Notes: generated by a model from the letters alone, not told the origin. 60,205 bases of DNA, filler included, from 4 parts of 4 records of this genome joined end to end with filler, not necessarily neighbours in it, one strand, 5' to 3'; positions 28,011 to 60,205 are shown, counted from the first letter of the whole stretch. A program made the numbers and translations.

Positions 28011-28039
28011 TTTTTCTGCACGCAAACGCAAAAAAGATC

Positions 28040-28066: not shown

Positions 28067-28128
28067 CGGACTAGAGCAAGATAATCGGCCCCAATGGGCT
28101 GGCACCATGGAAACAAGGAGTCCCGGAC

Positions 28129-36430: not shown

Positions 36431-36460
36431 TTGACGAATTCAAATACAGACGAGGATCTA

Positions 36461-36805: not shown

Positions 36806-36818
36806 TCGCGAGGTAGCA

Positions 36819-40425: not shown

Positions 40426-40457
40426 TGCCCCTTCCGATCAAAACGGGTTCACTGCAT

Positions 40458-40700: not shown

Positions 40701-40800
40701 NNNNNNNNNNNNNNNNNNNNNNNNNNNNNNNNNNNNNNNNNNNNTTAATTAATTAANNNNNNNNNNNNNNNNNNNNNNNNNNNNNNNNNNNNNNNNNNNN
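40701..40800. other. Artificial contig-joining spacer
   Basis: 44 N + TTAATTAATTAA + 44 N. Confidence 0.98.
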
Positions 40801-41116
40801 CGACGGCCTTCTGGCCGACGTGACAGGCGACGAAGGCCTGGTCGGTGAACTGCTCGACACCGGCCTGCTGGGTGACAGCACCGGCGAAGACGGCACCGCG
40901 GGCGGCTTGCTGGACGGTTTGCTGGGCGAGGACGGACCTTTAGGTGATGTCCTTGGCGGTGGCGACCTGCTGGATGGCCTTACCGGTGACGACGGTCTGG
41001 TCGGTGGCCTGCTCGGTGGCGGCAACCTGCTGGGCGGCACGCTGGACAGCCTGACAGATGGCAGCGATCTGCTGGGCGGCCTGACCGATGGCCTCGACGG
41101 CTCCCCGGACATCTGA
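40801..41116 (+). CDS. Gly/Leu/Asp-rich repeat protein, C-terminal fragment
   Basis: Frame open from 40802: DGLLADVTGDEGLVGELL..LLDGLTGDDGLVGGLLGG..SPDI*. Confidence 0.75.
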
Positions 41117-41372
41117 TCGGAGAACCCCAGAGATGAAACGAGGATTTGGTCCCTTCTTCATGCTGCCAGCCCGGGCAGACACGAGGGGCCATTTCACTGG
41201 GCTGACCGGAACACCCGTGCCCCCCAGCACGTTCCGGTCAGCCTTTTTACCTTGTGAAGGATACGACGCATCCGCTGCCTTCCAGACCGCTCAGGGGCGC
41301 AGACACAGATCCCACACCAAGGCGGATCCGCAACGATTGTCCGGCGTAACCTACGACGTAGACCAGGTCGAA

Positions 41373-41675
41373 ATGAAATACACCCTGCCCCCGATCGTGA
41401 CCAAACGCGAACCAGGTCCAGGCATCTGGGCCTTTCTGTTTATCGGGCTGATCTACGCCAACCTGTCGGCGGCGGTGATCTTCCTGCTGGGCGGGCATCT
41501 TGGGCTGGTGGCACTGGCCTATGTACTGGGCGGTGTCGTGGCCACGATGGTTTCCATCCTTGTTCATGGGATGCTGCAACGGCGCGCGACACTTGCCGAC
41601 GCACCGGAGCACCCTGAACATCAACGCGACGCCCCGGCGCCAGGTCGCATCCGTGAAACGGCAAAAGCCAAATGA
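41373..41675 (+). CDS. Small membrane protein (2 TM)
   Basis: IWAFLFIGLIYANLSAAVIFLLGG / LVALAYVLGGVVATMVSILV; start set at ATG 41373. Confidence 0.55.
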   Translation: MKYTLPPIVTKREPGPGIWAFLFIGLIYANLSAAVIFLLGGHLGLVALAYVLGGVVATMVSILVHGMLQRRATLADAPEHPEHQRDAPAPGRIRETAKAK

Positions 41676-41688
41676 GAAAGTCGAAAAG

Positions 41689-42654
41689 ATGAGAATTCTT
41701 GCTGTTGATGACAATCCGTTCATTCTTGATTTCCTGCCGGCCATTCTTCAGAAAACCGACTTTAGGGACGTAAGCGTCGCGGCCTCGGGTCCACAGGCGC
41801 TTGATATTCTGGCCGAAGCAGAGGCCCCGTTTGATTGCCTGCTGTTGGACATTGAAATGCCGGAGATGGACGGGATCACTCTGTGCCGGAGAATCCGCAG
41901 CCTGGACGCCTATCACGACACCCCGATCCTGATGCTGACGTTGAAATCGGACCCGGTGTCCATCGAACAGGCGTTTGCAGCGGGCGCCAACGACTATCTC
42001 ACGAAACCTTTCGAGATCAAAGAGATGGCCACACGTTTGCGGGTGGCCAAGCGTATGACCGAAACCTCGGACAAGGCGCCACGGCTCAATCCGAACACCA
42101 TGACCAGGAACGGCCTGCCCGGCATTCACAAGTTCGGACTCGAAGATCCGGTTTATGTTCTTGGCGTCAATCAGCTGGTCCTGCCGTTTTCCCTGGGCAA
42201 TTACCTGTCGCAACTGTCGCGCAGCAATCTGAAGATCTGCCAGGCTTTCGCCGTAAAGATCGACGATATCGACGCGTTGTATCGCAATGGCACAAGCCGC
42301 GAATTTGTCAGCGCCATAGCTGCTGCTGCACAGGCAATTGCAGAGGTTGTGGACCGTACGCAACTTTTGATGGCCTATGCCGGAGACGGTACAATTCTGG
42401 GCATCGTCACCGAAGAACACCCCCCGGTCTGGCACGAGCTTGAGGACGGGCTTCAGTCCGCTTTGGACAACATGGACCTGCGTGACGACGATGGCCGTCA
42501 GATGAAAGTCACACTGTCGGTCGGTCGACCAGTTCACCCGTCGGCCAACAAGACCCAGAGGGTCAAGTTTACCTTTGACCGTGTGGTTCGTCTTGCAGAA
42601 GCCCGCCAGGCAACAAAATTCAAAGCGAACGAGAACGAGGTGCGCAGTCTCTGA
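41689..42654 (+). CDS. Response regulator: REC plus degenerate GGDEF-like domain
   Basis: ILAVDD, LLDIEMPEMDG, GANDYLTKPF; AYAGDG in place of RYGG(D/E)EF; LSVG strand. Confidence 0.85.
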   Translation: MRILAVDDNPFILDFLPAILQKTDFRDVSVAASGPQALDILAEAEAPFDCLLLDIEMPEMDGITLCRRIRSLDAYHDTPILMLTLKSDPVSIEQAFAAGANDYLTKPFEIKEMATRLRVAKRMTETSDKAPRLNPNTMTRNGLPGIHKFGLEDPVYVLGVNQLVLPFSLGNYLSQLSRSNLKICQAFAVKIDDIDALYRNGTSREFVSAIAAAAQAIAEVVDRTQLLMAYAGDGTILGIVTEEHPPVWHELEDGLQSALDNMDLRDDDGRQMKVTLSVGRPVHPSANKTQRVKFTFDRVVRLAEARQATKFKANENEVRSL

Positions 42655-42827
42655 CGGTGAGCACCTGAACCGAATACCTGCCAAATGTCCCACCAGACGA
42701 TCCCTGCTCCGCCCTGTCGAACAGGCCGCCTGGTGGGGTAACGAGTACCCCAGAACACCAAACCGATTTTTACGTCACATTATTTTTCGCGGATTTTTTA
42801 AGCCGCACACAGCCGTGTTAGGGACCC

Positions 42828-45645: not shown

Positions 45646-48600
45646 ATGAAAACCAATGCCGTATCGAAGTTTTTGGATGAATTCGCCTCGCGAGTATCCT
45701 CTCTTCCCGCGCCTTATCCGCGCTTTGTTGTCTTTGTTTCTGCGACGGATGGTGACAGTCGGGCGCGGGTCAGAACGATCACGGCATCTACTCTGGCTGA
45801 ATTGCGCGAACGGCTGCAGGAAAAAGCCCCGCTGCAGATGCTTGGCGCACGTCATGTGCGTTTGGACTGGGCGACCTCGGTACAGGCGGTACCCTTTGCC
45901 ACGTACATTGCCGCCTTGGAGAAGGTGAAACGCAACTACAGCCGAAAAGGTCTGTCTCTGGATGCGGATTTCCAGCATGCGATTACCGAAGGTGAATTGA
46001 ACGGCAGCGCCCTGCTTTATCAAGGCGCGCAGGTTCCGCATTGCGAAATCAACCTCAACAACTTCGGGATCTACTGGAAAAGGCGGTTTGGCAAAACGTT
46101 TGAAGTTCCCAAAGAGACCGACACCGTCCATCTCTTCTCGACTGACGGGATGTTTCGGGATGGCGACAGCGACGAAATTGTAAGCCTCGAACCATCCGGG
46201 CCGAATGGTGGTCGGCGTATTTTCGACCTTATGCAGCCTGCCAATCTGGATTTTCTGATAGATGAAAGTGCCGGGTATCTTGCGGCCCAGGTGAACGAGC
46301 ACGGCATGTTTCATTATGGCAGGCATCCCTGCTTTGACCGTCCGATCAACCACTACAACACATTGCGCCATGCCAGCAGCACCTATGCGCTGTGTGAAGC
46401 CTATGAGTTGTCCCGACGCGATGATCTTCGCGAGGCCATTGATCGGTCGTTAAGGCAGATCGCGAAAAACCTTGTCAAATACAGCCACGGACCGGACGGC
46501 GCTTCTGCCTTTCTGATGGACACGGGCAAGGAAGTAAAACTTGGCGGCAACGCCGTTGCCATTCTGGCGTGCTGCAAGTTTTTCGAGGTGACAGGCGACA
46601 AAACCGTAATTGAGCTGGCACGTCGGCTGGGCAACGGCATCTTGTCGATGCAGCGGTCTGACGGCAGCTTTTGCCACGTTCTGGATGCGGACACGCTGAC
46701 CCCTAAAGAGGACTTTCGCACGGTCTATTATGACGGAGAAGCCGCATTCGGGCTGATGCGGCTTTACGGTGCCACAGGCGATCAACGCTGGCTGGATGCG
46801 ACCCGACGTGCCGTCGATTACTTCATCGCCAAGGATTACTGGCAGTACAACGATCACTGGCTGGCGTATTGCGTCAACGAACTGTCGCGTCATTACACCG
46901 ACCCGAAATACACCGCGTTCGGCATCCGCAACGTCCGGGACTACTTGCCCTTTATCCGCGAACGGATCACCACCTTTCCGACCCTGCTGGAACTGTGTTG
47001 TGCCACCCGGCTGCTGCTGCAAAGAGCGCTGCAGGATGCATCTTTGACCCCGATCATCGACGCGCTGGATCTTCATGCGTTTCGCGAGGCAATGGAACAT
47101 CGGGCGCAATATCTGACCAACGGGTTCTTTTTTCCCGAAGTTGCGATGTATTTCCGGAATCCGGCTTCTGTCACCGGAAGCTTTTTCATTCGCCACCACG
47201 GCTTTCGGGTGCGCATCGACGATGTCGAACACTATCTGTCCGGCCTGATCGCCTATCGGTCCTATCTGAAAGAGCGGGACAGCTTTATCGACCTTTGCGA
47301 TCAGCAAAAGCGAAGGCAGGTCGGAAAACCGGGACAGGCGCGCTGGACAACCCAAGGTATCACCGACCTTCTGCCGGGGTCGGAATGGCTGCGCCCACCG
47401 TCGGCCAGCCAGGAATTGAACGGCGTTTCCACGTTCGCCCCAAGCTTTCGCGCCGATGACATCGTATTTGCGCGGCATCCGGATGACCGGTTCGGAATTC
47501 CCTATAAAGAGCTTGAAGACAGCCAGATTTTTCCACGCCTTGCCATCGTGAGCCGCAACGAAGGCGCCTCCGTCAAAGCCGGCTCCGTATTACGCGTTCC
47601 CGATATGAGCGCAGCTCTGATTGCACTGGCACATGATGCGCGCAGGTCGCTCGCTGCCCCGGTTGTCGGCATTACAGGCAGCGCGGGAAAGACGACCGTA
47701 ACCTCAATGATTGCCCATTGTCTTGGCGCAGTCGGCAAGGTTCACGCCACCCGCTTCAGCGCGAATATGGTGCGCGGCCTTGCCTGGAACCTGTGTTGCG
47801 CCCCCACCGATACGGAATACTGTATTCTGGAGATGGCGATCGGACAGATGCAAGAGAACACCCGACTGGCGCGCCCGGATATTGCAGTGTTTACCAACAT
47901 CCATCCCGCACATCTGATCTATCACAAAGACACGGCCACCATTGCTGAGAAAAAAGCGCGCATATTTACCGAGATGCCCGACAATGGCGTGGCGATCCTG
48001 AACCGGGATATGAACGAATACGAGATCGTAGAGGCCGCGGCAAAGAACAAGGGCCTGAAAATTGTAACCTATGGCTGGTCGGATAGGGCCAACATCTTTC
48101 CGGTATCCCCGGCCCCTTCGGCATCACAGGTCACGCTGAGTGTCTTCGGAGAACTCCATACAGTGCCAACCCTGAGCGCGGGACGCTATGCGATCGATAA
48201 CACGATGGCGGTGGCTGCGGTCGTCCGTGTACTGGACCAACCGGTCGGGCCGGTGCTTGCGCATCTGACGACTTTTGCAAAAGATGTCGGGCGTGGACAG
48301 GTTATCGAAATGGCTGTCGCAAAGGGTTTCGCGAAAATTCTGGATCATTCCTATAACGCAAACCCGGCATCAATGCGCGCGGCGCTGGATGACATGCTTG
48401 CGATGCCTTGCGCTGGGAAACGGGTGGCCATTCTTGGGGATATGGCTGAGCTTGGCGAAGACAGCGACGCAGCACATGCCGCGCTTATCCACCTGCTCAA
48501 AGACAAACCGTTGGATACCGTTTATCTTGTCGGCGACGCGTTCAAGGCGGGCCTTGCTTCATCTGACCATGATGGCAGGTTCAACATTCTTGATCTGGAA

Positions 48601-48711
48601 GATCTGGAGAACATCCTGACCGAACAGCTCGCCCCGGGCGATGTCGTCCTGGTAAAAGGCTCGAACAGTACGGGACTGTTTCAAAACCTTTCGAAATTCA
48701 GAATGTCTTAA
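45646..48711 (+). CDS. Fusion: N-terminal (alpha/alpha)-barrel-like domain (family usually labelled poly(glycerol-phosphate) alpha-glucosyltransferase) plus C-terminal MurF-like ligase
   Basis: YNTLRHASSTY, KLGGNAVAILA, YYDGEA, DHWLAY, RVRIDDVEH; then GITGSAGKTT, SYNANPASM, LGDMAELG, LVKGS. Confidence 0.75.
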   Translation: MKTNAVSKFLDEFASRVSSLPAPYPRFVVFVSATDGDSRARVRTITASTLAELRERLQEKAPLQMLGARHVRLDWATSVQAVPFATYIAALEKVKRNYSRKGLSLDADFQHAITEGELNGSALLYQGAQVPHCEINLNNFGIYWKRRFGKTFEVPKETDTVHLFSTDGMFRDGDSDEIVSLEPSGPNGGRRIFDLMQPANLDFLIDESAGYLAAQVNEHGMFHYGRHPCFDRPINHYNTLRHASSTYALCEAYELSRRDDLREAIDRSLRQIAKNLVKYSHGPDGASAFLMDTGKEVKLGGNAVAILACCKFFEVTGDKTVIELARRLGNGILSMQRSDGSFCHVLDADTLTPKEDFRTVYYDGEAAFGLMRLYGATGDQRWLDATRRAVDYFIAKDYWQYNDHWLAYCVNELSRHYTDPKYTAFGIRNVRDYLPFIRERITTFPTLLELCCATRLLLQRALQDASLTPIIDALDLHAFREAMEHRAQYLTNGFFFPEVAMYFRNPASVTGSFFIRHHGFRVRIDDVEHYLSGLIAYRSYLKERDSFIDLCDQQKRRQVGKPGQARWTTQGITDLLPGSEWLRPPSASQELNGVSTFAPSFRADDIVFARHPDDRFGIPYKELEDSQIFPRLAIVSRNEGASVKAGSVLRVPDMSAALIALAHDARRSLAAPVVGITGSAGKTTVTSMIAHCLGAVGKVHATRFSANMVRGLAWNLCCAPTDTEYCILEMAIGQMQENTRLARPDIAVFTNIHPAHLIYHKDTATIAEKKARIFTEMPDNGVAILNRDMNEYEIVEAAAKNKGLKIVTYGWSDRANIFPVSPAPSASQVTLSVFGELHTVPTLSAGRYAIDNTMAVAAVVRVLDQPVGPVLAHLTTFAKDVGRGQVIEMAVAKGFAKILDHSYNANPASMRAALDDMLAMPCAGKRVAILGDMAELGEDSDAAHAALIHLLKDKPLDTVYLVGDAFKAGLASSDHDGRFNILDLEDLENILTEQLAPGDVVLVKGSNSTGLFQNLSKFRMS

Positions 48712-50375: not shown

Positions 50376-51707
50376 CTACGGCACGGCAAATGTTCTGTTC
50401 GCCAACCCCGGAAGCATATAGCGGAAGGCGACAGAACGGACGCCCTGAAATACGAGCATGGCAACCCAGAGACCATGATTGCCGAAGAGCGGCTGCAGCA
50501 CCGCCAGTGCCACAAGATAGGTCGCCAGTGACAAAAGCATGAGATTGCGCATCTCCCGTGACCACGTGGCCCCGATAAAGATACCATCCATCTGAAAGGC
50601 GATAACACCGGCAAGCGGCATTGCTGCGGCATAGGGCAGATACTCAATGGCAAGCGCCAGTGTGCTGTCATTCGGCGCCATCATGCCTGCAACCCAGGAC
50701 CCGGTGGCCATGAAGAGGGCAGCCATCGTGAGAGCAAAGGCAACGCCCCAAAGCGTTGTCAGCCGCACCACACGATCAAATGCAGGCCGGTAGAGCGCGC
50801 CGATCGAACGTCCTGCAAGTTGCTCAGCTGCCGTTGCAAACCCGTCCAGAAAGGCGACGCCCAGAAAATAGTAACGCAGCAATATCGTATTGGCCGCCAG
50901 AATTTCCACGCCCAGCGTTCCGCTTTGCCGGGTAAACAGCGAAATCCCGATCAAAAGCGCGAATGAGCGGATCATCATATCGCGGTTGACCGAAAACATT
51001 CGCTTGATCGCAACCAGATCCGGCCAGGTCCATAATGCGCGATCGGTGCGTTTCAGTATCAACCCGATGCCGATCAGTGCGGTTACCGCTTCTGCCACCA
51101 GACTGGCTGCCCCGGCCCCGGCCAGCCCAAAGCCCATCCAGAGCACCCACAAAAAGCTCAAAGCTATATTGAGACCATTCAAAATGAGTTGCAGGACCAG
51201 CGCACTGACTGCCTCGCCACGCCCGATCACCCAACCGAAAACCACGAAATTGAACAACGCAAACGGAGCCGACCAGACCCGCCAGCTGTAATAAACCCAG
51301 CCTGCGTCACGCACCTCGCCTTCGGCTCCCAGCAGATAAAGTCCCAGACGGCCAATCGGCACATGTAACAAAACGATCAACAGGCCGGAGCAAAGCGCAA
51401 TCAGAATACCGCCAAGCAGCATACGCTGTTCACCTGCCTTATCATGAGCGCCCAGGGCCTGGGCGGTGAAGCCGGTTGTCGCGCCACGCAGAAAGTTGAA
51501 CGTCGTGAACAGCACATCGAAAATTACCGCAGAAAGCGCCACGCCACCAATCAGCACGTCGTTCTTCAACTGGCCTATCACGCCGGTTGCAACCAGGCCG
51601 ACAAGTGGTGTGGAAAGGTGGGCGATCATCATCGGCAGCGCAATAATGAGCACAAGGCGATGCGTAACCGCAAAGGCACGGGGATTTTCAGGGGCCCTTG
51701 TGGACAT
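50376..51707 (-). CDS. MATE efflux transporter (DinF-like)
   Basis: IALPMMIAHLSTPLVGLV, FNFLR, DMMIRS, LDGFA, DGIFIGAT, GNHGLW. Confidence 0.9.
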   Translation of the reverse strand: MSTRAPENPRAFAVTHRLVLIIALPMMIAHLSTPLVGLVATGVIGQLKNDVLIGGVALSAVIFDVLFTTFNFLRGATTGFTAQALGAHDKAGEQRMLLGGILIALCSGLLIVLLHVPIGRLGLYLLGAEGEVRDAGWVYYSWRVWSAPFALFNFVVFGWVIGRGEAVSALVLQLILNGLNIALSFLWVLWMGFGLAGAGAASLVAEAVTALIGIGLILKRTDRALWTWPDLVAIKRMFSVNRDMMIRSFALLIGISLFTRQSGTLGVEILAANTILLRYYFLGVAFLDGFATAAEQLAGRSIGALYRPAFDRVVRLTTLWGVAFALTMAALFMATGSWVAGMMAPNDSTLALAIEYLPYAAAMPLAGVIAFQMDGIFIGATWSREMRNLMLLSLATYLVALAVLQPLFGNHGLWVAMLVFQGVRSVAFRYMLPGLANRTFAVP

Positions 51708-53028: not shown

Positions 53029-53196
53029 ATTATCTCCTCGTAAGCTTGAACCTGAAATTGTTTTGCCGCTTAATTATGAAGCGAATACGGCAACTCTTGC
53101 CGGAACCTCCAAATTGGGGTAGTTCGATGCTCCGCACAAGTTGCCATTGGCTTGTGCGAATCCGGTTTTGCATGAAACATTGCACAAAACCGGCGC

Positions 53197-53272
53197 GGGC
53201 CTGTAGCTCAATGGTTAGAGCCGGCGGCTCATAACCGCTTGGTTGGGGGTTCGAGTCCCTCCAGGCCCACCA
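53197..53272 (+). tRNA. tRNA with CAT anticodon, most likely tRNA-Ile2 (lysidine)
   Basis: 76-nt cloverleaf GGGCCTG..CAGGCCC-ACCA, anticodon loop CTCATAA, GGTTCGAGTCC T-arm. Confidence 0.93.
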
Positions 53273-53291
53273 AAATTTCCAATTTTTCTTT

Positions 53292-54404
53292 TCATTTCAA
53301 CACCTTACTTTTATTTTTGACGAACCTTGACTGAAGGTTCACCACAGTTTGTTCTCGGTTCGGTCGAGAAATAAGCTTCGCAAAAGCCGAATCAGCCAAA
53401 CCTTCGCGCATAGCTGCTTCGGTGTACCGCTGGACTTCGGACAGTGTCTTGTGTCCGGTTACGGACATGATTTCATGAGCGCTTGCCCCGGCTTCAGCCA
53501 ACCGCCGTGCACAAGCCTTGCGCAACCCATGCGCCGAACAGGCATCAAGTCCGGCCTTATCGCACCACTGGCGCATTTTGTTGCCCAACCCCTCAGCCGA
53601 CCTTGGCCTTCCATATGCCGTGGCAAGGAATGGCCTGTCATCAGCGCTTGCGGAAAGCACCTCTGCCAAGTCCGGATGGAGCGGAATGGAGATCAGAACA
53701 CCATTGCTCTTGAGGGTCTTCTGGCGGCGATACTCGAAACGCGGGCCATCAGCGGATTGTTTGAGGTTCCATGGGCCAAGCTTCACCGCATCCACGCGGG
53801 CGGCTCCCGTGTAAAGCATCAGCGTCACCGCCGTATGCGCCATGGTTCCCGTCTCATGCACTTGGAAGAACCGGGCTATCTCGCCCTCATCCCATGTATG
53901 GAAGCCCGAACCATCCAGCTTGTAGGGTTTGACCAGACGCGCGGGATTGGTTGAAATCCAGTCAAGGGCAATCGCGTGGTCCAGAAGCTGCATAAGCCGC
54001 TTCCGCAAGTTATTTGCAGCCGCCGGAGTATCTGCCTTCTCTGCCAGTATTTTCATGACATGGCGCCGCTCAAGTTGATTAACAGGCTTGTTGCCATGCT
54101 TCACGCGGAAAGGCTCTATATGTCCGCGATAGGTGCGCTTGGTGCTATCGGAGAGCGCTTTCCATACCGGGGACTTATAGAACGAAACAACAAGGTCATT
54201 CACGCTGCCGGGAATAGTGCGGTCGATGCCGATGGGGCGACGGATTGACTTTACCGCCGCCTCATATCTCGCCACGAAGTCGTCAGACCCATATTCAGTA
54301 CCGAGTTCAACCGAGCGGCCAGCCTTCCGATACCTCCACCGCCTTTTCCCGTGACGGTCAAAGTAAGGTGTTGCGCCGGGAAATTTCTTTCGCAGGGGCT
54401 TCAT
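53292..54404 (-). CDS. Tyrosine recombinase / phage integrase
   Basis: YTGAARVD, HGLRK, VTGH, QRYT catalytic set; DRHGKRRWRYR arm-binding N-terminus; start at 54404 (ATGA overlap) or 54416. Confidence 0.95.
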   Translation of the reverse strand: MKPLRKKFPGATPYFDRHGKRRWRYRKAGRSVELGTEYGSDDFVARYEAAVKSIRRPIGIDRTIPGSVNDLVVSFYKSPVWKALSDSTKRTYRGHIEPFRVKHGNKPVNQLERRHVMKILAEKADTPAAANNLRKRLMQLLDHAIALDWISTNPARLVKPYKLDGSGFHTWDEGEIARFFQVHETGTMAHTAVTLMLYTGAARVDAVKLGPWNLKQSADGPRFEYRRQKTLKSNGVLISIPLHPDLAEVLSASADDRPFLATAYGRPRSAEGLGNKMRQWCDKAGLDACSAHGLRKACARRLAEAGASAHEIMSVTGHKTLSEVQRYTEAAMREGLADSAFAKLISRPNREQTVVNLQSRFVKNKSKVLK

Positions 54405-54574
54405 TCTTTGTCCCATGGGTTCGTTGCTTTCTCGGTCGCCTTGTCAGGAATGATGACAACATGCCCTGTCCGTGGATCAACCTCAATCCGGCCAATCTCC
54501 ACACCAGCGCCGACAACGCCTTTCAACAGGCGCGTCAGTTCTGCTTGCTTGATTGGTAAAGCCCGGTTTGCCAT
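54401..54574 (-). CDS. 57-aa protein upstream of the integrase, putative excisionase/RDF (not in the ORF track)
   Basis: MANRALPIKQAELTRLLKGVVGAGVEIGRIEVDPRTGHVVIIPDKATEKATNPWDKE*; TAATG overlap with portal, ATGA overlap with integrase. Confidence 0.7.
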   Translation of the reverse strand: MANRALPIKQAELTRLLKGVVGAGVEIGRIEVDPRTGHVVIIPDKATEKATNPWDKE

Positions 54575-55788
54575 TAGCCTTCTCCACCTTCCCCACGGTT
54601 GCCGAGCGTGGTCATGTTGAGCGGCGAGAGGTATTCGCTGCCGCCTTCGATTTCGGACATGTTTTCAAGCCCGCGAATTTCGTTCGGGGAAAGCCAGCCC
54701 CATTCCCGGCCCACGCGGTAAGCCTCGTAACGGGCTTTCATGTCGCCGCGCAGCAATCCGGCAAGGTCATGCTCCATAAACAGCATCTTGCGGCTTGTCG
54801 CCGTCAGAAAGGCCGCATTCATCGCCTGTTCCAGCCTGCGCGCCAGCGGCGAGAGGCAGCGCACGACAAAGGCCCGGCTTTCCTGATCGATATTAGAATA
54901 GGTCGCGTTATCGGTGATGCCGGCAACTGACGGCGGGACGTTGTAAACCCGGCAGATATCGAGGTTCGAAAGCTTCATGCGTTCGATGAATTCGGCATCC
55001 TTTGCCGACATGGACACCGCCTTGAAGTCCGCGCCGCCGTCGAGAACATGCACCCCGGACGTGCTGTTATTCGCCTCAAGCTTCTGGCGCAGCTTGTCGA
55101 GAACATCGACTTTCTTGTCCACCGGAAGCGGGTTCGGGAAGGTAAACAGCCCTTCCATGCGAAAGCTCTTTGCCGCCTGCTTGGCAGCGGCGTCCTGTTG
55201 CGACAGGGAGAGGTTGAAGGCTTCGCGGGTAATCTGGACCGGGGAAAGCCCCATAACGCCATCACGGCCAAGCCTGTAGCGCACATGCAGCATTTCTTCC
55301 TGAAGGTAGACCCGAACGCCCCGGCGTTCCGTAACCCGGTAGCGCAGGCGTCCGCTTTCAAGCTGTTCAACGGCAACCGCGCCGGGATCAAGCGGGTAAA
55401 GCGCTGTCACCTGTCCGCGATTGTTGCGGGCAATCCGGGCAAAGGCGTTGCCGTGGATCAGAAGCGCGGCAATCATGTATTCCCGTGCTTCGAAGGCCGT
55501 CTGGGTTTCATTGGCCTGATCATGCAGAACGCCGTAAAGCGGGTGTTCGCTGGCGCGTTCACGCCCGCCATTGTCCGCGCGCCGGTAAAGGTTCAGCGGC
55601 ATCGCTGCCAGCGTCTGGGTGATCACGGCAATGCAGGCATGGGCGACAGCCTGCCCGGAAGCGCGTTCGGGATCGACATAACCGCCGATGCCGCCACGCA
55701 GGCCAAAGAATTCGCCAAGGTAAGGATCATCGCTCTTGATCGTGGCAGCGCGGGTTTCGCGCTTGAAGATGTTGGGAATCAGTTTCAT
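54574..55788 (-). CDS. HK97-family phage portal protein
   Basis: EHPLY.VLHDQAN, LLIHGNAFA, GLSP, ATYSNIDQ, LLRGD..R, SPNEIR..EN. Confidence 0.95.
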   Translation of the reverse strand: MKLIPNIFKRETRAATIKSDDPYLGEFFGLRGGIGGYVDPERASGQAVAHACIAVITQTLAAMPLNLYRRADNGGRERASEHPLYGVLHDQANETQTAFEAREYMIAALLIHGNAFARIARNNRGQVTALYPLDPGAVAVEQLESGRLRYRVTERRGVRVYLQEEMLHVRYRLGRDGVMGLSPVQITREAFNLSLSQQDAAAKQAAKSFRMEGLFTFPNPLPVDKKVDVLDKLRQKLEANNSTSGVHVLDGGADFKAVSMSAKDAEFIERMKLSNLDICRVYNVPPSVAGITDNATYSNIDQESRAFVVRCLSPLARRLEQAMNAAFLTATSRKMLFMEHDLAGLLRGDMKARYEAYRVGREWGWLSPNEIRGLENMSEIEGGSEYLSPLNMTTLGNRGEGGEG

Positions 55789-56321
55789 CGGCCAAGCTCC
55801 AGAAGGCGAAGCGATCGCGCAGCATAGGCTTTGAAGCCGTTGCCGGACTGGCGCGCGCGGGCATTGATTACCGTGCCGTCATAGGCGGGCCACGCCAGCA
55901 CAACGGAGATTTCGAACAGATCCACGGCGCGCAGTTCCCGGCGGTTGCCGTCGCGGCCTTCATCCAGTGCGGCAAAGCCGAATGACATGCCGCCAAGGTC
56001 ACCACGTTCGGCCAGTGCCAGCACATCGCGGCCCGCCTGCGTGTCGGGAATGTCGAGGTCGAAGGCAAGGCCGTGCGTGTCTTCTGACAGGCGCAGGGAA
56101 CCGGAACGGGTGCGTGCCAGAACGCGGCCAGGATCGTGATCGACAAGCGCAAGAATATCCCCCGCCGAACGGATCGAGCCGGAGAAAGCTCCCGGCGCAA
56201 TGGTCTCGCTGAATGCGCCGCCGATCATGGCGGGGTTATTGAAGGTCGCGGCATAGCCTTCCAGCCTGCGCCCCTTGGCGCGGATTTCAGCGGCAAGGCC
56301 TCGCTTTTCGAAAGTGGTCAT
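55785..56321 (-). CDS. HK97-family prohead protease
   Basis: EGYAATFN, ETIAPGAF, DHD..VLART, GMSFGF, LFEISVV..PAY. Confidence 0.95.
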   Translation of the reverse strand: MTTFEKRGLAAEIRAKGRRLEGYAATFNNPAMIGGAFSETIAPGAFSGSIRSAGDILALVDHDPGRVLARTRSGSLRLSEDTHGLAFDLDIPDTQAGRDVLALAERGDLGGMSFGFAALDEGRDGNRRELRAVDLFEISVVLAWPAYDGTVINARARQSGNGFKAYAARSLRLLELGR

Positions 56322-56599
56322 GCAAAACTCTCCCGATAAGGAGCAATCAGGCGGTCAACGGCCAGCGGTGTTTCGATCAGGGGCGCTTCGGCGGTTGCTT
56401 CGCGGTTTAGGTAGAAATGGCCGACAAGCATCAGCACGGCCATTGAAAGCGGTTCGGGCAGAGGATCGGCGCTCATATCAACGCCGATGGAAGCCAGATG
56501 CGCACTTGCCGCCGCGATGAAACGTTCAATCGCGGCGTCATCATCATCAAAATCAACGCGCAAATGCGCTTTCGCGGCGGCAAGCGTCACCATGATCAA
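56318..56599 (-). CDS. Head-tail connector (HK97 gp6-like)
   Basis: TLAAAKAHLRVD..DD, AVLMLVGHFYLNRE, LIAPYR. Confidence 0.92.
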   Translation of the reverse strand: MIMVTLAAAKAHLRVDFDDDDAAIERFIAAASAHLASIGVDMSADPLPEPLSMAVLMLVGHFYLNREATAEAPLIETPLAVDRLIAPYRESFA

Positions 56600-57837
56600 A
56601 CCTCTGCGAAAGCGAAGGCTTCGCCGTGACGAACGGTTACGTCCGCGTCGAGGAAGGCATGCAGAAGCGCACCGCCATTGCTGGCAACGTCCGGGTGATA
56701 AGGATTGATCAGGATATCAACCGCCGACCAGTAGCCCATATAGAGTTCACCCCACTGGCCGTAGATCAGTGCCGATTTGTCTTCTTCTGCCCCCAGATCG
56801 GCGGGAACCTGTGTCGAGGCTTCAACCGGCTTGCCGTGGAACAGTTCGGCCATGGTGAAGCTGTGGCCGTCTCCATCCTTGAGCTTGCGGCAGGAGTTCA
56901 TGACGCCAGGATTTGTCAGAAACGCCGTGGTGCCGGTCACATCGTCCATTTCAAGCGATGCAATCAAGTCCGCCGTTAAATCCGAAAAGTCAGGAAAACC
57001 ACCTTCAAGTTTGCCGATACCGGGATTGTCCAGCAGGCCCAGCGGTTCGCTTTCAGCACCGCTTCCGGCAATTGCGGCCCGGTCCAGCCCCTGCGCCAGC
57101 ATCAGACCAAGATCACGGCGCAGAATGGTTTCCATGGCTTCATTGCTTTGAAGCATCAGGCGGCGCGTCAGGCCATATTCACCGGTGATTGTCTTCGGAG
57201 CCATCGACACCTTGCCAAAGGAAACAGACGAGCGGTTGGCGTTGCCGCCTTCGGCAACCCATGCGGTCGAACCGGAACCCACCATGTTCGGCAGGTCCAG
57301 AAAGCCAGTCAGGCCACGCAACACGGTTGCACCCATGCTTTCAACTTTCAGGGACGGGCGGAAACGATCAGCCATCCCGGCAAGCTGCGTTGCCACGGTA
57401 TAGCCGCCAGCCGCTGCCGCGCCGACGCTCTGTTCGCGGGTTTCAACCCGGCCCAGCAGCACTTCGGACGGCACGGCAAGATGAATGCCATTGGCACCGG
57501 AGCGGCTTTCACGGCCCCGGCTCAATTCCTGATGCACTTCGGCTTCGCGGCCAGCCAGACGGCCCGAAAGCGCGCCGGAGACGGCAGCCGAAAGCGAGTA
57601 GCTGCGCAGTTCGCGGGAATATTCGCCATTATCATTGACCGGCTCTGCCGTGGTTTCACGCTCGTAAGCGGCCATACGTTCTTCGCGGCCAATCTGGCGA
57701 TCAATGGTTTCAACTTCGGTTTCCAGCGCCTTGAAGCGCTGTTCTTCGTTGTCTGACAGGGTTTCCTTTTCGTGCAGGCCGCGCATTTCGGCAATTTTCG
57801 AGGCGCGGGTTTCGCGCAGTTCAATCAGTTTTTTCAT
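56596..57837 (-). CDS. HK97-fold major capsid protein with N-terminal delta/scaffold coiled coil
   Basis: Coiled-coil N-terminus, GGYTV, WVAEG, TRRLMLQS, GSG..EPLGLL, RH..AF; start moved to ATG 57837. Confidence 0.93.
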   Translation of the reverse strand: MKKLIELRETRASKIAEMRGLHEKETLSDNEEQRFKALETEVETIDRQIGREERMAAYERETTAEPVNDNGEYSRELRSYSLSAAVSGALSGRLAGREAEVHQELSRGRESRSGANGIHLAVPSEVLLGRVETREQSVGAAAAGGYTVATQLAGMADRFRPSLKVESMGATVLRGLTGFLDLPNMVGSGSTAWVAEGGNANRSSVSFGKVSMAPKTITGEYGLTRRLMLQSNEAMETILRRDLGLMLAQGLDRAAIAGSGAESEPLGLLDNPGIGKLEGGFPDFSDLTADLIASLEMDDVTGTTAFLTNPGVMNSCRKLKDGDGHSFTMAELFHGKPVEASTQVPADLGAEEDKSALIYGQWGELYMGYWSAVDILINPYHPDVASNGGALLHAFLDADVTVRHGEAFAFAEV

Positions 57838-57940
57838 TCTCGATCTTTCCAATAGGATGTTTTGGGGGGCGGTCGAGATCAGTTCTTTAAGAAAGTTTGG
57901 TTAGTGGTAGTGAGAAGTTCGGACGCAAGGGGGAAGTGGC

Positions 57941-58144
57941 TTAGTTGAAGTAACCCTCAGCCTGAAGGTGCAACCTGATTTTGCTTTTCAGGTCTTCCAC
58001 AACGAATTCAAGAAGTTCGATTTCCTTTTTGTAATCAAAGACCGCTGGCTCATCATCCAAAGTGCTTTCACCCAACGCCTGAACGAATCCCAAATGACCT
58101 TCTGCGGTTTCGTAAAGGTCCCAAAGCTTGGCGATCTCCTGCAT
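57941..58144 (-). CDS. Hypothetical protein (67 aa)
   Basis: GAAAGGA RBS then MQEIAKLWDLYE..; helical and acidic. Confidence 0.55.
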   Translation of the reverse strand: MQEIAKLWDLYETAEGHLGFVQALGESTLDDEPAVFDYKKEIELLEFVVEDLKSKIRLHLQAEGYFN

Positions 58145-58290
58145 TTCGAAGTTCCTTTCTAAATTGAATAGTCGCCAGCGCGCCGCCCTTGTCCGGTGAT
58201 CGTCTCGACACCCCACGCCGCCGGAGGGCGGCTTTCGCTATCGGCTGGCTGGCGCAGCCTCAAAGAACCGGCGTGGGGAATAGCTAAAAA

Positions 58291-58911
58291 CTAGTCGTCA
58301 AACATCGCGGCAATCTCCTCGATTTCCTCGACGTCGACCCGGCGCGTCTGCTTGATGCGACGTTGATATTCGCGCCTCTTGTCGAAGAAACCGCTGCTGG
58401 CGGTGCGCAGATCGGCGGAAAGATCGCCCTGCGGCGCGTGATCAAAGTTCAAGGCATAGGCAAAGGCGACGTTGTTGATTTCGATGATCCCGATCAGTTC
58501 GGAAGACCGGATTTCGACTGCGCAATCTTCAATGGCCTGATCGGCTTCACCCTCTGCACTCAAAAGGTCCAAAAGCATTTCAATGCCAGTCTCGAAGGTA
58601 TGCGGTTCGAAGAAGCCGGGGAAATCGACTCGGAAATTATCGAAATGCGAACCTTCAAGCTGCTCGGCCTGAAGCGCCAGACCGGCGAAATCGCCCACAA
58701 TCTGCGGAGCATCTGCCGGACGGTCGCTGACAAGCGCCCAGATCAGCAGACGGGCAGCATCCATCGAAACCATGTCTGGGGCATTGACGCCACGGGCACC
58801 TGTGGTCATCAGGCCCGCCTCGCGCAGAGACCGGAATGCAACGCGGATAGTTTTGCTCGAAAACCCCGTCGAATTTGCCATTCCGTCTATAAATCCAGTG
58901 GTTTTGACCAT
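58291..58911 (-). CDS. Hypothetical protein with N-terminal wHTH-like region
   Basis: MANSTGFSSKTIRVAFRSLREAGLMTTGARG..DAARLLI; AGGA RBS and an upstream promoter. Confidence 0.65.
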   Translation of the reverse strand: MVKTTGFIDGMANSTGFSSKTIRVAFRSLREAGLMTTGARGVNAPDMVSMDAARLLIWALVSDRPADAPQIVGDFAGLALQAEQLEGSHFDNFRVDFPGFFEPHTFETGIEMLLDLLSAEGEADQAIEDCAVEIRSSELIGIIEINNVAFAYALNFDHAPQGDLSADLRTASSGFFDKRREYQRRIKQTRRVDVEEIEEIAAMFDD

Positions 58912-58940
58912 GTTGAAATCCTAAATGCGTACAACACTCT

Positions 58941-58975
58941 TTGCGCAAAATGCCCTGTCACAACGAAAAAGTCAA
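58941..58975 (-). promoter_or_regulatory. Putative sigma70 promoter, copy 1
   Basis: TTGACT-N17-CATTTT within TTGACTTTTT-N10-GGGCAT-N2-TGCGCAA. Confidence 0.6.
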
Positions 58976-58997
58976 GCACAAAGTGTGTTTTTGGCAT

Positions 58998-59555
58998 TTA
59001 GAGGTTAGCCCCAGACCAGCTTCGCCATGCCCGAACACTCGACTGGGCTACCTTCCGGGTGGCGCGCTTGCCGACTTTCTCCCGAAGAAGGCCGCACCCG
59101 ATGCGTTCGCCGCTGCCGTCAAATCCGGAATGAAAGCTCCATTCCTGCGGTCGGGTTGTGTCTCTGCTATTGGGGTTTGTCTGGTCTATGCCTTCTGTCC
59201 AGCCGCAAAACGGCTCTTGCTCATCGCCGTTGATTTCAACGTCCGCGTCATAAGGTGCGCCGTGAGCGCCGGAGGTGGTCAAGCCAAGCCATGGCTCGTA
59301 GTCGGCATTATCGACTTCACGGTCATCATCACACGACATATCGTTGGTTGTGCGTCGATCTCCACAGCGCTCATGCTGGTTCGGCCAACCATTCACCGGC
59401 TCGGCGGTACCGTCATCTTCGGCGCTGTCGTCGCCGTCATAATCATCGAGTAGTGAAATCAGGTGCTCAATCGTCTGCTCTATCCGCTCCCGCAATTCCG
59501 GCGTCAACTCCACAATGCGGACATAGCTTTCCCGTTCGCGAAAATGAGTGTTCAT
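58998..59555 (-). CDS. Hypothetical acidic protein
   Basis: AGGAG RBS; LRERIEQTIEHLISLLD followed by Asp-rich EP..GW pseudo-repeats. Confidence 0.6.
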   Translation of the reverse strand: MNTHFRERESYVRIVELTPELRERIEQTIEHLISLLDDYDGDDSAEDDGTAEPVNGWPNQHERCGDRRTTNDMSCDDDREVDNADYEPWLGLTTSGAHGAPYDADVEINGDEQEPFCGWTEGIDQTNPNSRDTTRPQEWSFHSGFDGSGERIGCGLLREKVGKRATRKVAQSSVRAWRSWSGANL

Positions 59556-59590
59556 TCGCGTTGCTCCTAAAACGTGCTTCGTGCTATCTA

Positions 59591-59646
59591 TTGCGCACCA
59601 TGCCCAATACCGGGCAAAAAGTCAACTCCATGCGCAAAGTTGGGCA
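59591..59646. promoter_or_regulatory. Divergent promoter/operator region
   Basis: Minus strand TTGACT-N17-CATGGT (copy 2); two TGCCCA-N4-TGGGCA-like palindromes at 59601-59616 and 59631-59646. Confidence 0.6.
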
Positions 59647-59648
59647 TA

Positions 59649-59891
59649 ATGTCAGTTTCTCCAGCACAATGCCGCGCTGCTCGCGCGCTAATCGAGATGG
59701 ATCAGGCCACTTTGGCGCAAGCCGCAAACGTGTCGAGAAACACGATTGTCGACTTTGAAAAGGGGCGACGCACGCCGAACCTGAATAATTTGGCAGCTAT
59801 TCAGCTAGCATTAGAAAAGGCGGGAGTTGTTTTCGTTGCCCAGAATGGCGAGGGTGCAGGAGTACGATTGAGGAAACAAGCCAATGAGTAA
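59649..59891 (+). CDS. XRE-family HTH repressor
   Basis: SPAQCRAARALIEMDQATLAQAANVSRNTIVDFEKG..GAGVRL; divergent from the minus-strand block. Confidence 0.88.
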   Translation: MSVSPAQCRAARALIEMDQATLAQAANVSRNTIVDFEKGRRTPNLNNLAAIQLALEKAGVVFVAQNGEGAGVRLRKQANE

Positions 59892-60015
59892 AAGAGACGA
59901 CTTTCTGTTTGCTGTTCAAACAGCCATCTTGGCAGACTGCATTCTGCGGCAAACCAAGAGTGACCCGACCAGCAAAGAAAAGACCTTTGCACATCCCGGG
60001 CATATTATCGGTCGC

Positions 60016-60205
60016 ATGGATGATCTTCTATATGCAGCAGATCGTATTCCCGAGCACATGAGCGCGTTTGAAGCGGCGCATTCCTACTGCTTTTATATGA
60101 TTGATAACCTACGTGAGGACGATGAACGGTCATCAGGACGAAAAGCTGAGTTACCTTCTTGGTTCGCTCGTTGCTTGAGAACGGCGGTGCAAAAGTCGGC
60201 CACGG
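60016..60205 (+). CDS. Hypothetical protein (3'-truncated by window edge)
   Basis: ATG 60016 frame open to the end: MDDLLYAADRIPEH.. Confidence 0.4.
   Translation, partial: MDDLLYAADRIPEHMSAFEAAHSYCFYMIDNLREDDERSSGRKAELPSWFARCLRTAVQKSAT

What the first reader, a model, noticed from the sequence alone, without database searches (positions are those of the whole stretch)
53197..60205. tRNA-integrated, head-only phage satellite candidate (cf-PICI-like) with unusual gene order
Seen: an integrase ending 19 nt from the tRNA 3' end. Transcription order is capsid, connector, protease, portal, small ORF, integrase. Upstream lie only three small genes and a divergent XRE repressor. No terminase, tail, lysis or replication gene is present in 7 kb. 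Known: HK97-like phages use terminase-portal-protease-capsid-connector-tail order far from int, while capsid-forming PICIs put capsid first and borrow helper tails. Inference: a capsid-forming satellite family in Alphaproteobacteria. Terminase and primase may lie beyond 60205, so their absence is not established.
Basis: partly seen in the sequence, partly recalled or inferred. Interest (0 to 1): 0.78.

Follow-up and report, generated by a model that had tools for sequence, protein, structure and literature searches.

The report
Tail-less capsid-encoding island at tRNA-Met
A small mobile element inserted next to a tRNA gene carries the genes for a virus head but none for a tail, and most likely belongs to an undescribed family of phage "satellites" common in rhizobia-like bacteria.

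Summary
tRNA-Met (53197-53272) is followed on the minus strand by integrase, a 57-aa ORF, HK97-type portal, S78 protease, Ad1 connector and capsid. All junctions have overlapping stops and starts. Upstream lie three ORFs of unknown function and a divergent XRE regulator.

The window ends inside the element, and no attR lies before 60205.

Evidence that it is a real mobile element:
- Martelella lutilitoris GH2-6 has a 93% identical copy at the same tRNA. It is bounded by a 19-nt att repeat and cut down to 4.3 kb by an internal deletion.
- Another strain shows the empty site.
- Element genes have dS 0.13-0.49 against about 1.1 for host flanks, with dN/dS about 0.05 for int, portal and protease.

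The capsid has 489 relatives. The best 120 are 58-85% identical, and those named come from Hyphomicrobiales. Their contig lengths pile up at 10-11 kb.

A complete 10.6-kb analogue in Paracoccus versutus is att-bounded and shares the ORF57-int cassette. It has a replication initiator, TerL, portal and capsid, and no tail gene.

Best reading: an alphaproteobacterial capsid-forming satellite that works like cf-PICI. The small trees here gave no support for placing it inside the enterobacterial cf-PICI lineage.

Still unknown: whether the unseen part encodes a terminase, and which phage is the helper.

The parts
53197..53272 (+). tRNA-Met (CAT). Its last 15 nt (53258-53272) are the att core, so this is the attL side of the element.
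   Evidence: ARAGORN; Rfam. The core is repeated as attR in the M. lutilitoris copy and stands alone at the empty site.
53292..54416 (-). Tyrosine integrase. The probable true start is ATG 54404, which overlaps the ORF57 stop as ATGA.
   Evidence: PF00589 1.2e-13, phrog_1 1.9e-36. dN/dS 0.05 against the sister copy. Alignment to the Paracoccus integrase starts at residue 5. Sequence.
54401..54574 (-). ORF57, a small protein coupled to int. Inferred recombination directionality factor (excisionase-like).
   Evidence: No family match. Homologues sit directly upstream of int in Paracoccus (49%), Pseudorhodobacter (40%) and a Caenibius 38-kb phage-plasmid (42%). dN/dS 0.03.
54574..55788 (-). HK97-family portal protein
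   Evidence: PF04860 1.2e-93 over 2-321 of 321 profile positions; TIGR01537 2.2e-65. dN/dS 0.05.
55785..56321 (-). Prohead serine protease (S78)
   Evidence: PF04586 6e-40, TIGR01543 5.6e-28. Best phage matches: Labrenzia phage V1 54%, Rhizobium phages 48-50%.
56318..56599 (-). Head-tail adaptor Ad1 (gp6-like connector)
   Evidence: PF05135 2.2e-11, phrog_40 4.6e-24, TIGR01560 1.1e-19
56596..57837 (-). HK97-fold major capsid protein with an N-terminal delta-like region (413 aa from ATG 57837)
   Evidence: PF05065 3.4e-22 on residues 149-416; TIGR01554 4.7e-37. PDB chain 8gta_A 1.5e-22. 489 relatives.
57941..58144 (-). ORF67, unknown function
   Evidence: ORF with an AAAGGAA ribosome-binding-like motif before ATG 58144. 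No family match.
58291..58911 (-). ORF206, a family-specific protein with an N-terminal winged-helix-like motif. Function unknown.
   Evidence: 93 relatives without a Pfam domain; invariant T-G-A-R-G-x-N-A-P motif. Confident model, pLDDT 89.5, with no fold match in PDB or BFVD. Absent from the phage and plasmid collections. Three contig lengths (2351, 5100, 10702) also occur in the capsid hit list.
58921..59001 (.). Inverted repeat, 26-nt arms (81% complementary), between ORF185 and ORF206. Role unknown.
   Evidence: the repeat finder (pair I1)
58998..59555 (-). ORF185, an acidic protein of unknown function and first gene of the leftward operon
   Evidence: ORF. No match in Pfam, PHROGs, NCBIfam, PADLOC or PDB sequences. 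Atlas returned only unnamed clusters.
59556..59648 (.). Divergent intergenic region between ORF185 and XRE. Inferred switch and promoter region.
   Evidence: Sequence. The consensus promoter scan found nothing, so this role is an inference from gene arrangement alone.
59649..59891 (+). XRE / C-protein-like HTH regulator, divergent from the head operon
   Evidence: PF01381 6.7e-08; PADLOC Control_protein 2.3e-16; phrog_2104 3.2e-09
59884..60205 (+). ORF107, open at the window end, overlapping the XRE stop. Small all-helical protein of unknown function.
   Evidence: 60 relatives, mostly 88-100 aa, aligned to residues 1-96, so the gene is nearly complete. No Pfam match in 8 relatives scanned. Model pLDDT 91.7 with no PDB fold match.

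Best explanation
The window holds the tRNA-proximal 6.9 kb of an integrated mobile element. It belongs to a family of small elements, probably 10-13 kb, in Hyphomicrobiales.

Shown:
- These elements insert into the 3' end of a tRNA gene with a tyrosine integrase.
- They encode their own HK97-type procapsid set: capsid with a delta-like region, S78 protease, portal and Ad1 adaptor.
- No tail or lysis gene is seen.

Inferred:
- The element is a capsid-forming phage satellite.
- An XRE-type regulator at a divergent promoter region keeps one long leftward operon silent. That operon runs ORF185, ORF206, ORF67, capsid, Ad1, protease, portal, ORF57, int.
- After de-repression, presumably triggered by a helper phage, int with ORF57 (a likely directionality factor) excises the element.
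- A lambda-O-like initiator encoded near attR replicates it. This gene was seen only in the sister copy.
- The element builds small heads that take up its own DNA and then join to helper-phage tails. The helper also supplies lysis, and perhaps head closure.

Whether the element packages with its own terminase, encoded beyond 60205, or with the helper's is open. I put about 0.6-0.65 on its own terminase.
For: 1. Real integration.
- The M. lutilitoris GH2-6 copy (L001) is 92.9% identical over window 53196-56987.
- It is bounded by a 19-nt direct repeat of the tRNA 3' end, 4.27 kb apart.
- In strain ZRK001 the tRNA is followed directly by the sequence that lies beyond attR in GH2-6. This is the empty site.

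2. Horizontal spread and selection.
- dS is 0.13-0.49 for six element genes, against 1.08 and 1.14 for the two comparable host flank genes.
- dN/dS is 0.05 for int, 0.05 for portal, 0.07 for protease and 0.03 for ORF57.

3. An ordered operon, not debris.
- Domain coverage is full-length.
- All five junctions from capsid to int have overlapping stop and start codons.

4. Family breadth and size.
- 489 capsid relatives have E <= 1e-10. The best 120 are 58-85% identical. The named ones are Martelella, Allorhizobium, Pannonibacter, Sinorhizobium, Agrobacterium, Brucella pseudogrignonensis, Nitratireductor, Bosea and others.
- 15 of 119 longest-contig lengths fall in 10-11 kb, against a mean of 4.7 in six neighbouring 1-kb bins.

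5. No tail or lysis gene in 6.9 kb.

6. Capsid-before-protease-before-portal order as in proteobacterial cf-PICIs (passage). All 6 fetched phages have the opposite order.

7. A complete analogue in Paracoccus versutus.
- It spans 10,573 bp between 17-nt att repeats at tRNA-Glu.
- It carries an HTH_36 replication-initiator-like gene at the far end, gpA-type TerL, portal, protease-capsid fusion, cement protein, an ORF57 homologue and int. No tail gene is present.

8. The sister copy keeps the N-terminal third of an O-like initiator next to attR. Full-length relatives are 281-301 aa and match phrog_345.
Against: - No helper phage is known, and no excision, replication or particles have been shown.
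- The far end of the window copy is unseen, so its size, attR and any tail, terminase or lysis genes to the right are not established for this copy.
- No terminase, HNH or head-closure gene is visible, although every described cf-PICI has them.
- The only near-identical relative found is a deletion derivative with a truncated capsid, so decay does occur.
- The replication-initiator relatives share no contig length with the listed capsid or ORF206 hits: 0 of 17. Their link to this capsid family therefore rests on the single M. lutilitoris copy.
- Only two host genes were available for the dS baseline.
- Four to five ORFs have no assignable function.
Confidence: 0.6

Rival explanations
1. It is a rearranged, decaying remnant of an ordinary HK97-like prophage, in which only the integrase and part of the head module survive.
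For: - The M. lutilitoris copy lost everything between codon ~102 of its replication gene and codon ~275 of the capsid, and is only 4.27 kb.
- No terminase, tail or lysis gene is visible.
- A Pseudorhodobacter relative has a split integrase and stray capsid fragments.
Against: - Low dN/dS for int, portal and protease.
- Tidy overlapping junctions in a non-phage gene order.
- Hundreds of full-length capsid relatives of 401-443 aa.
- A contig-length peak at 10-11 kb.
- Synonymous divergence lower than the host's, which indicates recent transfer.
- An intact 10.6-kb att-bounded analogue.
Confidence: 0.12
2. It is the left end of a full-size temperate prophage with an unusual layout. Terminase, tail and lysis genes lie to the right of 60205.
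For: - The window ends inside the element and no attR is seen.
- The ORF57-int cassette also occurs in an ordinary 38-kb Caenibius phage-plasmid.
Against: - In the sister copy a replication gene, not a tail or lysis gene, abuts attR.
- The capsid-family contig lengths peak at 10-11 kb.
- No deposited phage has a capsid more than 31% identical or any ORF206 relative.
- In the six phages fetched, head genes follow the terminase and precede the tail genes, far from int.
Confidence: 0.08
3. It is a tail-less capsid-encoding element that does not depend on a helper. It could be a domesticated head module (GTA-like or compartment-like) or an integrative plasmid-like element that uses capsids in some other way.
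For: - No helper is known.
- The head genes are under strong purifying selection.
- Alphaproteobacteria are known for domesticated HK97-type gene transfer agents (established knowledge, not tested here).
Against: - Integrase, att repeats, an empty site and synonymous divergence lower than the host's all mark a mobile element, not a vertically inherited host module.
- A portal plus an Ad1 adaptor imply DNA packaging and attachment to a tail (established roles of these families).
Confidence: 0.08

Closest known systems
Capsid-forming PICIs of Proteobacteria (EcCIEDL933 type). Seen here as K. pneumoniae 16-kb circle NZ_CP069874.1 and 'Escherichia phage vB_KppS-Ant' LR881103.1.
   Same: - Small integrative element encoding capsid, S78 protease, portal and a head-tail connector but no tail.
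- Capsid gene placed before protease and portal (passage).
- Protease 46-48% and portal 36% identical.
   Different: - Int lies at the downstream end of the head operon next to the tRNA, not at the upstream end.
- The regulator is XRE rather than AlpA.
- The sister copy has an O-like initiator rather than a primase.
- Ad1 sits between capsid and protease, and no head-closure gene is seen.
- No HNH-terS-terL follows the portal.
- The capsid body is not alignable to the cf-PICI capsid; only the N-terminal 85 aa align, at 33%.
- Portal and protease fall outside the cf-PICI clade.
- The likely size of 10-13 kb is below the cf-PICI median of 14 kb.
Unannotated 10.6-kb element at tRNA-Glu of Paracoccus versutus pBEN (NZ_CP038196.1, L012 3539-14128), found here
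   Same: - Backbone: att repeat, replication-initiator-like HTH_36 gene at the far end, head genes on one strand, ORF57 homologue (49%), int (40%), tRNA.
- No tail gene.
   Different: - The head and packaging module is of another type and in canonical order: gpA-type TerL, lambda-family portal, protease-capsid fusion and cement protein.
- It integrates at tRNA-Glu.
- It has a terminase.
HK97-like temperate siphophages of Alphaproteobacteria (Rhizobium phage 16-3, RHph_TM3_3_14B, Labrenzia phage vB_LagS-V1)
   Same: They have the closest deposited proteases (48-54%) and the same protein families for portal, protease, capsid and Ad1.
   Different: - These phages run terS-terL-portal-protease-capsid-Ad1-Hc1-tail and are 39-60 kb.
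- Here the order is capsid-Ad1-protease-portal-int with no tail genes.
- The capsid is at most 31% identical to any deposited phage capsid.
RcGTA-type gene transfer agents
   Same: HK97-fold head genes in Alphaproteobacteria, with a small head expected.
   Different: As recalled, GTAs have no integrase or att sites, include tail genes, and are inherited vertically. This element has int, att repeats and an empty site, and its synonymous divergence is lower than the host's.

Membership tests
cf-PICI (SatelliteFinder model: 11 core components, at least 9 required) | Integrase | tested here: met
   PF00589 and phrog_1
cf-PICI | Capsid, prohead protease and portal encoded by the element | tested here: met
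cf-PICI | Two head-tail joining components (connector and adaptor/closure) | tested here: not met
   Only one, the Ad1 gp6-like connector, is recognisable in 53273-60205. Hc1 proteins of HK97, 16-3 and the cf-PICI gave no tblastn hit in the window. A second one beyond 60205 is not excluded.
cf-PICI | HNH, TerS and TerL encoded by the element | tested here: inconclusive
   None in the visible 6.9 kb, by Pfam, PHROGs and NCBIfam and by six TerL, two TerS and one HNH protein queries in tblastn. The element continues beyond the window. The Paracoccus analogue has TerL.
cf-PICI | AlpA/MerR/Stl-type regulator and primase-replicase | tested here: not met
   The regulator is XRE/C-protein-like. No primase is present. 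The sister copy has an O-like initiator fragment instead. These are analogous functions, not the family's profiles.
cf-PICI | No tail or holin genes (forbidden components) | tested here: inconclusive
   None in the visible part. The right-hand part is unseen.
cf-PICI | Head genes descend from one of the three described cf-PICI clades | tested here: inconclusive
   Trees of 11 portals and 9 proteases put window + M. lutilitoris on its own branch (100/99), outside the enterobacterial cf-PICI clade (94/87 and 99/100). Sampling is small, and Firmicutes cf-PICIs are not included.
cf-PICI | Induction by, and transfer with the tails of, a helper phage | not testable with these tools
   Needs experiments.
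HK97-like temperate prophage | Terminase-portal-protease-capsid-connector-tail order with lysis genes | tested here: not met
   The order here is capsid-Ad1-protease-portal-ORF57-int. All 6 fetched phages have the canonical order. There are no tail or lysis genes in the visible part.
RcGTA-like gene transfer agent | No integrase or att sites; vertical inheritance with the host | tested here: not met
   Int, att repeats, an empty site, and dS 0.13-0.49 against about 1.1 for host flanks.

The most novel reading that the evidence does not exclude
The Martelella-type element has no terminase of its own. It would then be a satellite that builds a complete portal-bearing procapsid and adaptor but takes over the helper's packaging motor as well as its tails. 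This is the reverse of classical PICIs, which bring TerS and steal capsids.

Its integrase would be translationally chained to the head genes, so that a single XRE switch fires excision and head assembly together. If so, capsid-forming satellites arose at least twice more in Alphaproteobacteria, with HK97-type and lambda-type head modules on one shared rep...ORF57-int backbone.
Probability: 0.25. Interest if true: 0.8.

Novelty: new variant of a known kind. Interest (0 to 1): 0.62.

Why it matters
Capsid-forming satellites are so far described from Gammaproteobacteria and Firmicutes.

A widespread family in rhizobia-like bacteria would open satellite biology in soil and plant-associated bacteria. 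The named hosts here include Sinorhizobium, Agrobacterium, Allorhizobium, Pannonibacter and Martelella. A 2026 review states that virtually nothing is known there (passages of PMC13486102).

The capsid-first order recurs in a lineage that does not group with cf-PICIs. Two different head modules also sit on one backbone. Both points bear on how often, and why, satellites acquire their own heads.

The elements are also candidate small-genome packaging systems. They may be an unrecognised route of gene transfer in these bacteria.

Tried and rejected
- **Extending the window.** The right-hand part of the window copy therefore stayed unseen.
- **Megablast of the element against plasmids** matched only the tRNA.
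- **Family members in the plasmid and phage collections.** No member of the capsid, portal, ORF206 or replication-initiator families was found:
  - capsid at most 31% identical
  - portal at most 37.5% identical
  - ORF206 no match
  - P0274 no match in plasmids
- **ORF206.** The model is confident but has no fold match in PDB or BFVD. The Atlas returned only unnamed clusters.
- **ORF185.** No family, no PDB sequence match, and only unnamed Atlas clusters.
- **ORF107.** It has relatives but no Pfam match, and its model has no PDB fold match.
- **ORF57.** Only chance-level PDB sequence matches, E 0.18 or worse.
- **PADLOC.** Only the XRE gene matched; no defence system was recognised.
- **Promoter and terminator scan.** It found 0 promoter-like sites against 3.5 expected, and 7 terminator-like sites against 9.6 expected. 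It is uninformative, so the operon model rests on gene spacing.
- **Repeat search for iterons or cos-like repeats** found only short two-copy families and one 26-nt inverted repeat.
- **An idea dropped.** I considered ORF206 as the counterpart of the M. lutilitoris replication gene. BLASTP gave E 0.049, and only a 31-aa helix-turn-helix stretch resembles the Paracoccus gene (E 0.002).
- **SatelliteFinder supplementary tables could not be read**. Whether any Hyphomicrobiales cfPICI is listed there is unchecked. The main text names none.

Full report
**Observation**

ARAGORN finds one tRNA in the window, tRNA-Met (CAT), at 53197-53272 on the + strand. Rfam confirms it. Immediately to its right, all on the minus strand, lie six genes:

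| Gene | Coordinates | Main evidence |
|---|---|---|
| Tyrosine integrase | 53292-54416 | Its stop codon is 19 nt from the tRNA end |
| ORF57 | 54401-54574 | No family match |
| HK97-family portal | 54574-55788 | PF04860, 1.2e-93 |
| S78 prohead protease | 55785-56321 | 6e-40 |
| gp6-like Ad1 connector | 56318-56599 | phrog_40, 4.6e-24 |
| HK97-fold capsid | 56596-57837 | TIGR01554, 4.7e-37 |

The domain matches cover essentially the whole profiles.

Reading the sequence shows that every junction from capsid to integrase has overlapping stop and start codons. Three overlap by 4 nt, one is a TAATG, and one is an ATGA at the probable int start 54404. The capsid most likely starts at ATG 57837, giving the 413 aa typical of its relatives.

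Upstream are ORF67 (57941-58144), ORF206 (58291-58911) and ORF185 (58998-59555). A 93-nt divergent intergenic region follows. On the + strand come an 80-aa XRE/C-protein-like regulator (59649-59891; PF01381 6.7e-08; PADLOC Control_protein 2.3e-16) and an overlapping ORF that runs off the window (59884-60205).

No ORF of this stretch matches a terminase, tail, lysis or replication family. None of 18 tail or lysis proteins of fetched phages matched by tblastn.

The rest of the window (1-53196) holds ordinary host genes and no other phage gene.

**The element is cut by the window**

No repeat of 11 nt or more from the tRNA 3' region occurs between 53301 and 60205. The right end of the element therefore lies outside the window.

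**A sister copy proves integration, mobility and also decay**

Locus L001 (Martelella lutilitoris GH2-6) matches window 53196-56987 at 92.9% nucleotide identity. The host DNA to the left matches at only 71-81%.

In L001 the similarity stops in the middle of the capsid gene. Only the last 139 codons remain. A 19-nt direct repeat of the tRNA 3' end lies 4.27 kb from the tRNA (sequence). Beyond it come ordinary metabolic genes.

Between that attR and the capsid fragment lies the first ~101 codons of a gene. Its full-length relatives are 281-301 aa, carry HTH_36, and match lambda-O-like replication initiators (phrog_345, residues 29-232 against profile positions 41-205 of 297, E 9.5e-06).

The GH2-6 copy is thus a deletion derivative of a longer element. 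The order of that longer element was attR, replication gene, unknown genes, capsid, Ad1, protease, portal, ORF57, int, attL/tRNA.

In a second strain, ZRK001 (L011), the same SIMPL gene and tRNA-Met are followed directly by the sequence that lies beyond attR in GH2-6. L001 9385-9472 aligns to L011 9149-9062, and the two flanks overlap in the 15-nt core. That is an empty attachment site.

**Selection and transfer**

With a Nei-Gojobori script I compared the two copies:

| Gene | dN/dS | dS |
|---|---|---|
| int | 0.05 | 0.43 |
| ORF57 | 0.03 | 0.25 |
| portal | 0.05 | 0.22 |
| protease | 0.07 | 0.19 |
| Ad1 | 0.27 | 0.13 |
| capsid C-terminal part | 0.14 | 0.49 |

The only two host genes alignable on the flank, ETF-alpha and SIMPL, have dS 1.08 and 1.14.

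The element is therefore two- to eight-fold younger than the host divergence. It entered, or was exchanged between, these lineages after they split. Its genes evolved under strong constraint. The uneven dS along the element suggests mosaic exchange. The baseline rests on two genes only.

**A large family with a characteristic size**

The capsid has 489 relatives with E <= 1e-10. The best 120 are 58-85% identical, and all but two are 401-443 aa. The named ones come from these Hyphomicrobiales: Martelella, Allorhizobium, Pannonibacter, Sinorhizobium meliloti (one cluster seen on 205 contigs), Agrobacterium vitis, Brucella pseudogrignonensis, Labrenzia, Pararhizobium, Nitratireductor, Aquibium and Bosea.

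No deposited phage or plasmid has a capsid more than 31% identical.

Of the 119 listed clusters with a contig length:
- 15 have their longest contig in 10-11 kb, against a mean of 4.7 in the six neighbouring 1-kb bins (Poisson tail about 1e-4).
- 29 lie between 9.9 and 13.1 kb.

I read this as the element often assembling as a unit of its own, which suggests a size of about 10-13 kb. This is indirect evidence.

ORF206 defines a family of 93 proteins without any Pfam domain. Three contig lengths (2351, 5100, 10702) also occur in the capsid list. The family is absent from the phage and plasmid collections.

The replication-initiator relatives also sit on contigs of 9.8-11.6 kb (6 of 17). They share no contig length with the other two lists.

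**Comparison with cf-PICIs and phages**

The cf-PICI preprint (passages read) states that proteobacterial cf-PICIs carry the morphogenetic genes in the order capsid-protease-portal-head connectors, followed by hnh-terS-terL.

I saw this order in two records: a 16-kb circular K. pneumoniae record and the packaged 'phage' vB_KppS-Ant. An Arsenophonus 16-kb plasmid shows the same order from protease onward.

All six phages fetched run terminase-portal-protease-capsid-connectors-tail. These are 16-3, RHph_TM3_3_14B, Labrenzia V1, phiE125, RcRhea and HK97.

The window element shares the capsid-first, portal-last order with cf-PICIs. It differs in several ways:
- Ad1 lies between capsid and protease.
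- There is no head-closure gene.
- The portal is followed by ORF57 and int rather than by HNH-terS-terL.
- Int is at the tRNA end of the operon.
- The regulator is XRE rather than AlpA.

Identities to the Klebsiella cf-PICI are 46% for protease and 36% for portal. For the capsid only the N-terminal 85 residues align, at 33%. The protease is as close or closer to alphaproteobacterial phages: 54% to Labrenzia V1 and 48-50% to Rhizobium phages.

In small trees (11 portals, 9 proteases) the window and M. lutilitoris form their own branch (100/99). This branch lies outside the cf-PICI clade (94/87 and 99/100). The portal sits on the phage side at 88/92, and the protease is unresolved.

I therefore treat the resemblance as functional, not as membership.

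**A complete analogue**

The integrase's best match in the plasmid collection (40%) lies in the unannotated Paracoccus versutus replicon pBEN.

There, a 17-nt repeat of the tRNA-Glu 3' end bounds 10,573 bp. All genes are on one strand, in this order:
1. An HTH_36 replication-initiator-like gene next to attR
2. A winged-helix protein
3. A 170-aa ORF
4. gpA-type TerL
5. Two unknown ORFs
6. A lambda-family portal
7. An S78 protease-capsid fusion
8. A 72-aa ORF
9. A cement protein
10. An ORF57 homologue (49%)
11. Int, ending 5 nt from the tRNA

No tail or lysis protein matched.

A Pseudorhodobacter replicon has a related, partly broken copy.

The ORF57-int pair also occurs in an ordinary 38-kb Caenibius phage-plasmid. 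There it follows early genes. ORF57 is therefore most likely an integrase partner such as a directionality factor. This is an inference.

Alphaproteobacteria thus hold att-bounded, ~10.6-kb, tail-less, capsid-encoding elements built on one backbone with at least two unrelated head modules. The Paracoccus element has its own terminase. A size budget for the Martelella type runs as follows:
- 6.9 kb are seen.
- About 1.1 kb is needed for the replication end.
- That leaves 2-3 kb in a 10-11-kb unit, just enough for terS and terL.

This is why I lean towards an unseen terminase (0.6-0.65).

**Unknown genes**

- ORF206 gives a confident model (pLDDT 89.5) with no fold match in PDB or BFVD.
- ORF107 is nearly complete. 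Most relatives are 88-100 aa. Its model is all-helical (pLDDT 91.7) with no match.
- ORF185, ORF67 and ORF57 have no family.

**Mechanism proposed**

Shown:
- Site-specific insertion at a tRNA.
- A constrained head operon chained to int.
- No tail gene in the visible part.
- Horizontal spread.

Inferred:
- The XRE regulator holds the leftward operon silent.
- A helper phage relieves this repression.
- Int and ORF57 excise the element.
- The O-like initiator replicates it.
- The capsid, with protease and portal, forms small heads.
- The DNA is packaged.
- Ad1 docks helper tails, and the helper lyses the cell.

**Literature**

Four full-text searches found no description of such elements:
- 'phage satellite' with Alphaproteobacteria, capsid and integrase: 6 papers, none on this.
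- cfPICI with Rhizobium: 0 papers.
- 'phage satellite' with Sinorhizobium: 2 papers. Only the search listing was seen, and neither title concerns this.
- satellite with Hyphomicrobiales, major capsid protein and portal: 0 papers.

Other reading:
- The marine VEIME paper reports satellites without capsid genes (passages).
- A 2026 review says virtually nothing is known of satellites in soil and agricultural settings (passages).
- The SatelliteFinder main text names no Hyphomicrobiales cfPICI (find and section 18). Its supplement could not be read.

**Limits**

- The right-hand end of the window copy is unseen.
- The helper is unknown.
- The size estimate is indirect.
- The selection baseline rests on two genes.
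- The trees are small.

Noticed in passing
window 33467-42693: A chromosomal cluster with a TraL-like ParA ATPase (35121-35993, NF010461 8.2e-68), a weak TraM-like ORF (35951-36430) and a VirB4/TrbE-family ATPase (37121-39514, TIGR00929 4.4e-64). About nine ORFs around them have no family. It could be a conjugative or type IV secretion remnant, or an integrative element.
   Followed up: partly
window 14693-31762: A hydroxamate-siderophore-like locus. It holds FecR and an ECF sigma factor, a TonB-dependent receptor, FecCD-type and ABC transport genes, FhuF, lysine/ornithine N-monooxygenase, an adenylation-PCP-thioesterase protein, a GNAT acyltransferase and MatE.
   Followed up: no
window 45646-48711: A 1021-aa ORF whose C-terminal 400 residues are MurF-like (TIGR01143 2.6e-77). 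Its N-terminal ~630 residues have no strong family; there is a weak LanM-like stretch.
   Followed up: no
window 50376-51707: A MatE efflux gene lies between ETF-alpha and the UPF0047 gene. It has no counterpart at the syntenic place in M. lutilitoris GH2-6.
   Followed up: no
L011 (M. lutilitoris ZRK001 replicon NZ_CP066788.1) 9077-18076: Downstream of the empty tRNA-Met site lie a metallophosphoesterase, a DUF6615 protein, a 1464-aa hypothetical protein and a HepT-like ribonuclease. This may be a defence-type island at the same hotspot.
   Followed up: no
L013 (Pseudorhodobacter turbinis NZ_CP039965.1) 8997-9514: Short capsid-like fragments sit just upstream of the portal of the tRNA-Glu element. 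One is 34% identical to the window capsid over 98 aa. The integrase there aligns in two pieces. Together these suggest remains of successive insertions.
   Followed up: partly
window 58921-59001: An inverted repeat with 26-nt arms (81% complementary, 29-nt loop) lies exactly in the ORF185-ORF206 intergenic gap. It could be a terminator, an operator or a packaging-site candidate.
   Followed up: no
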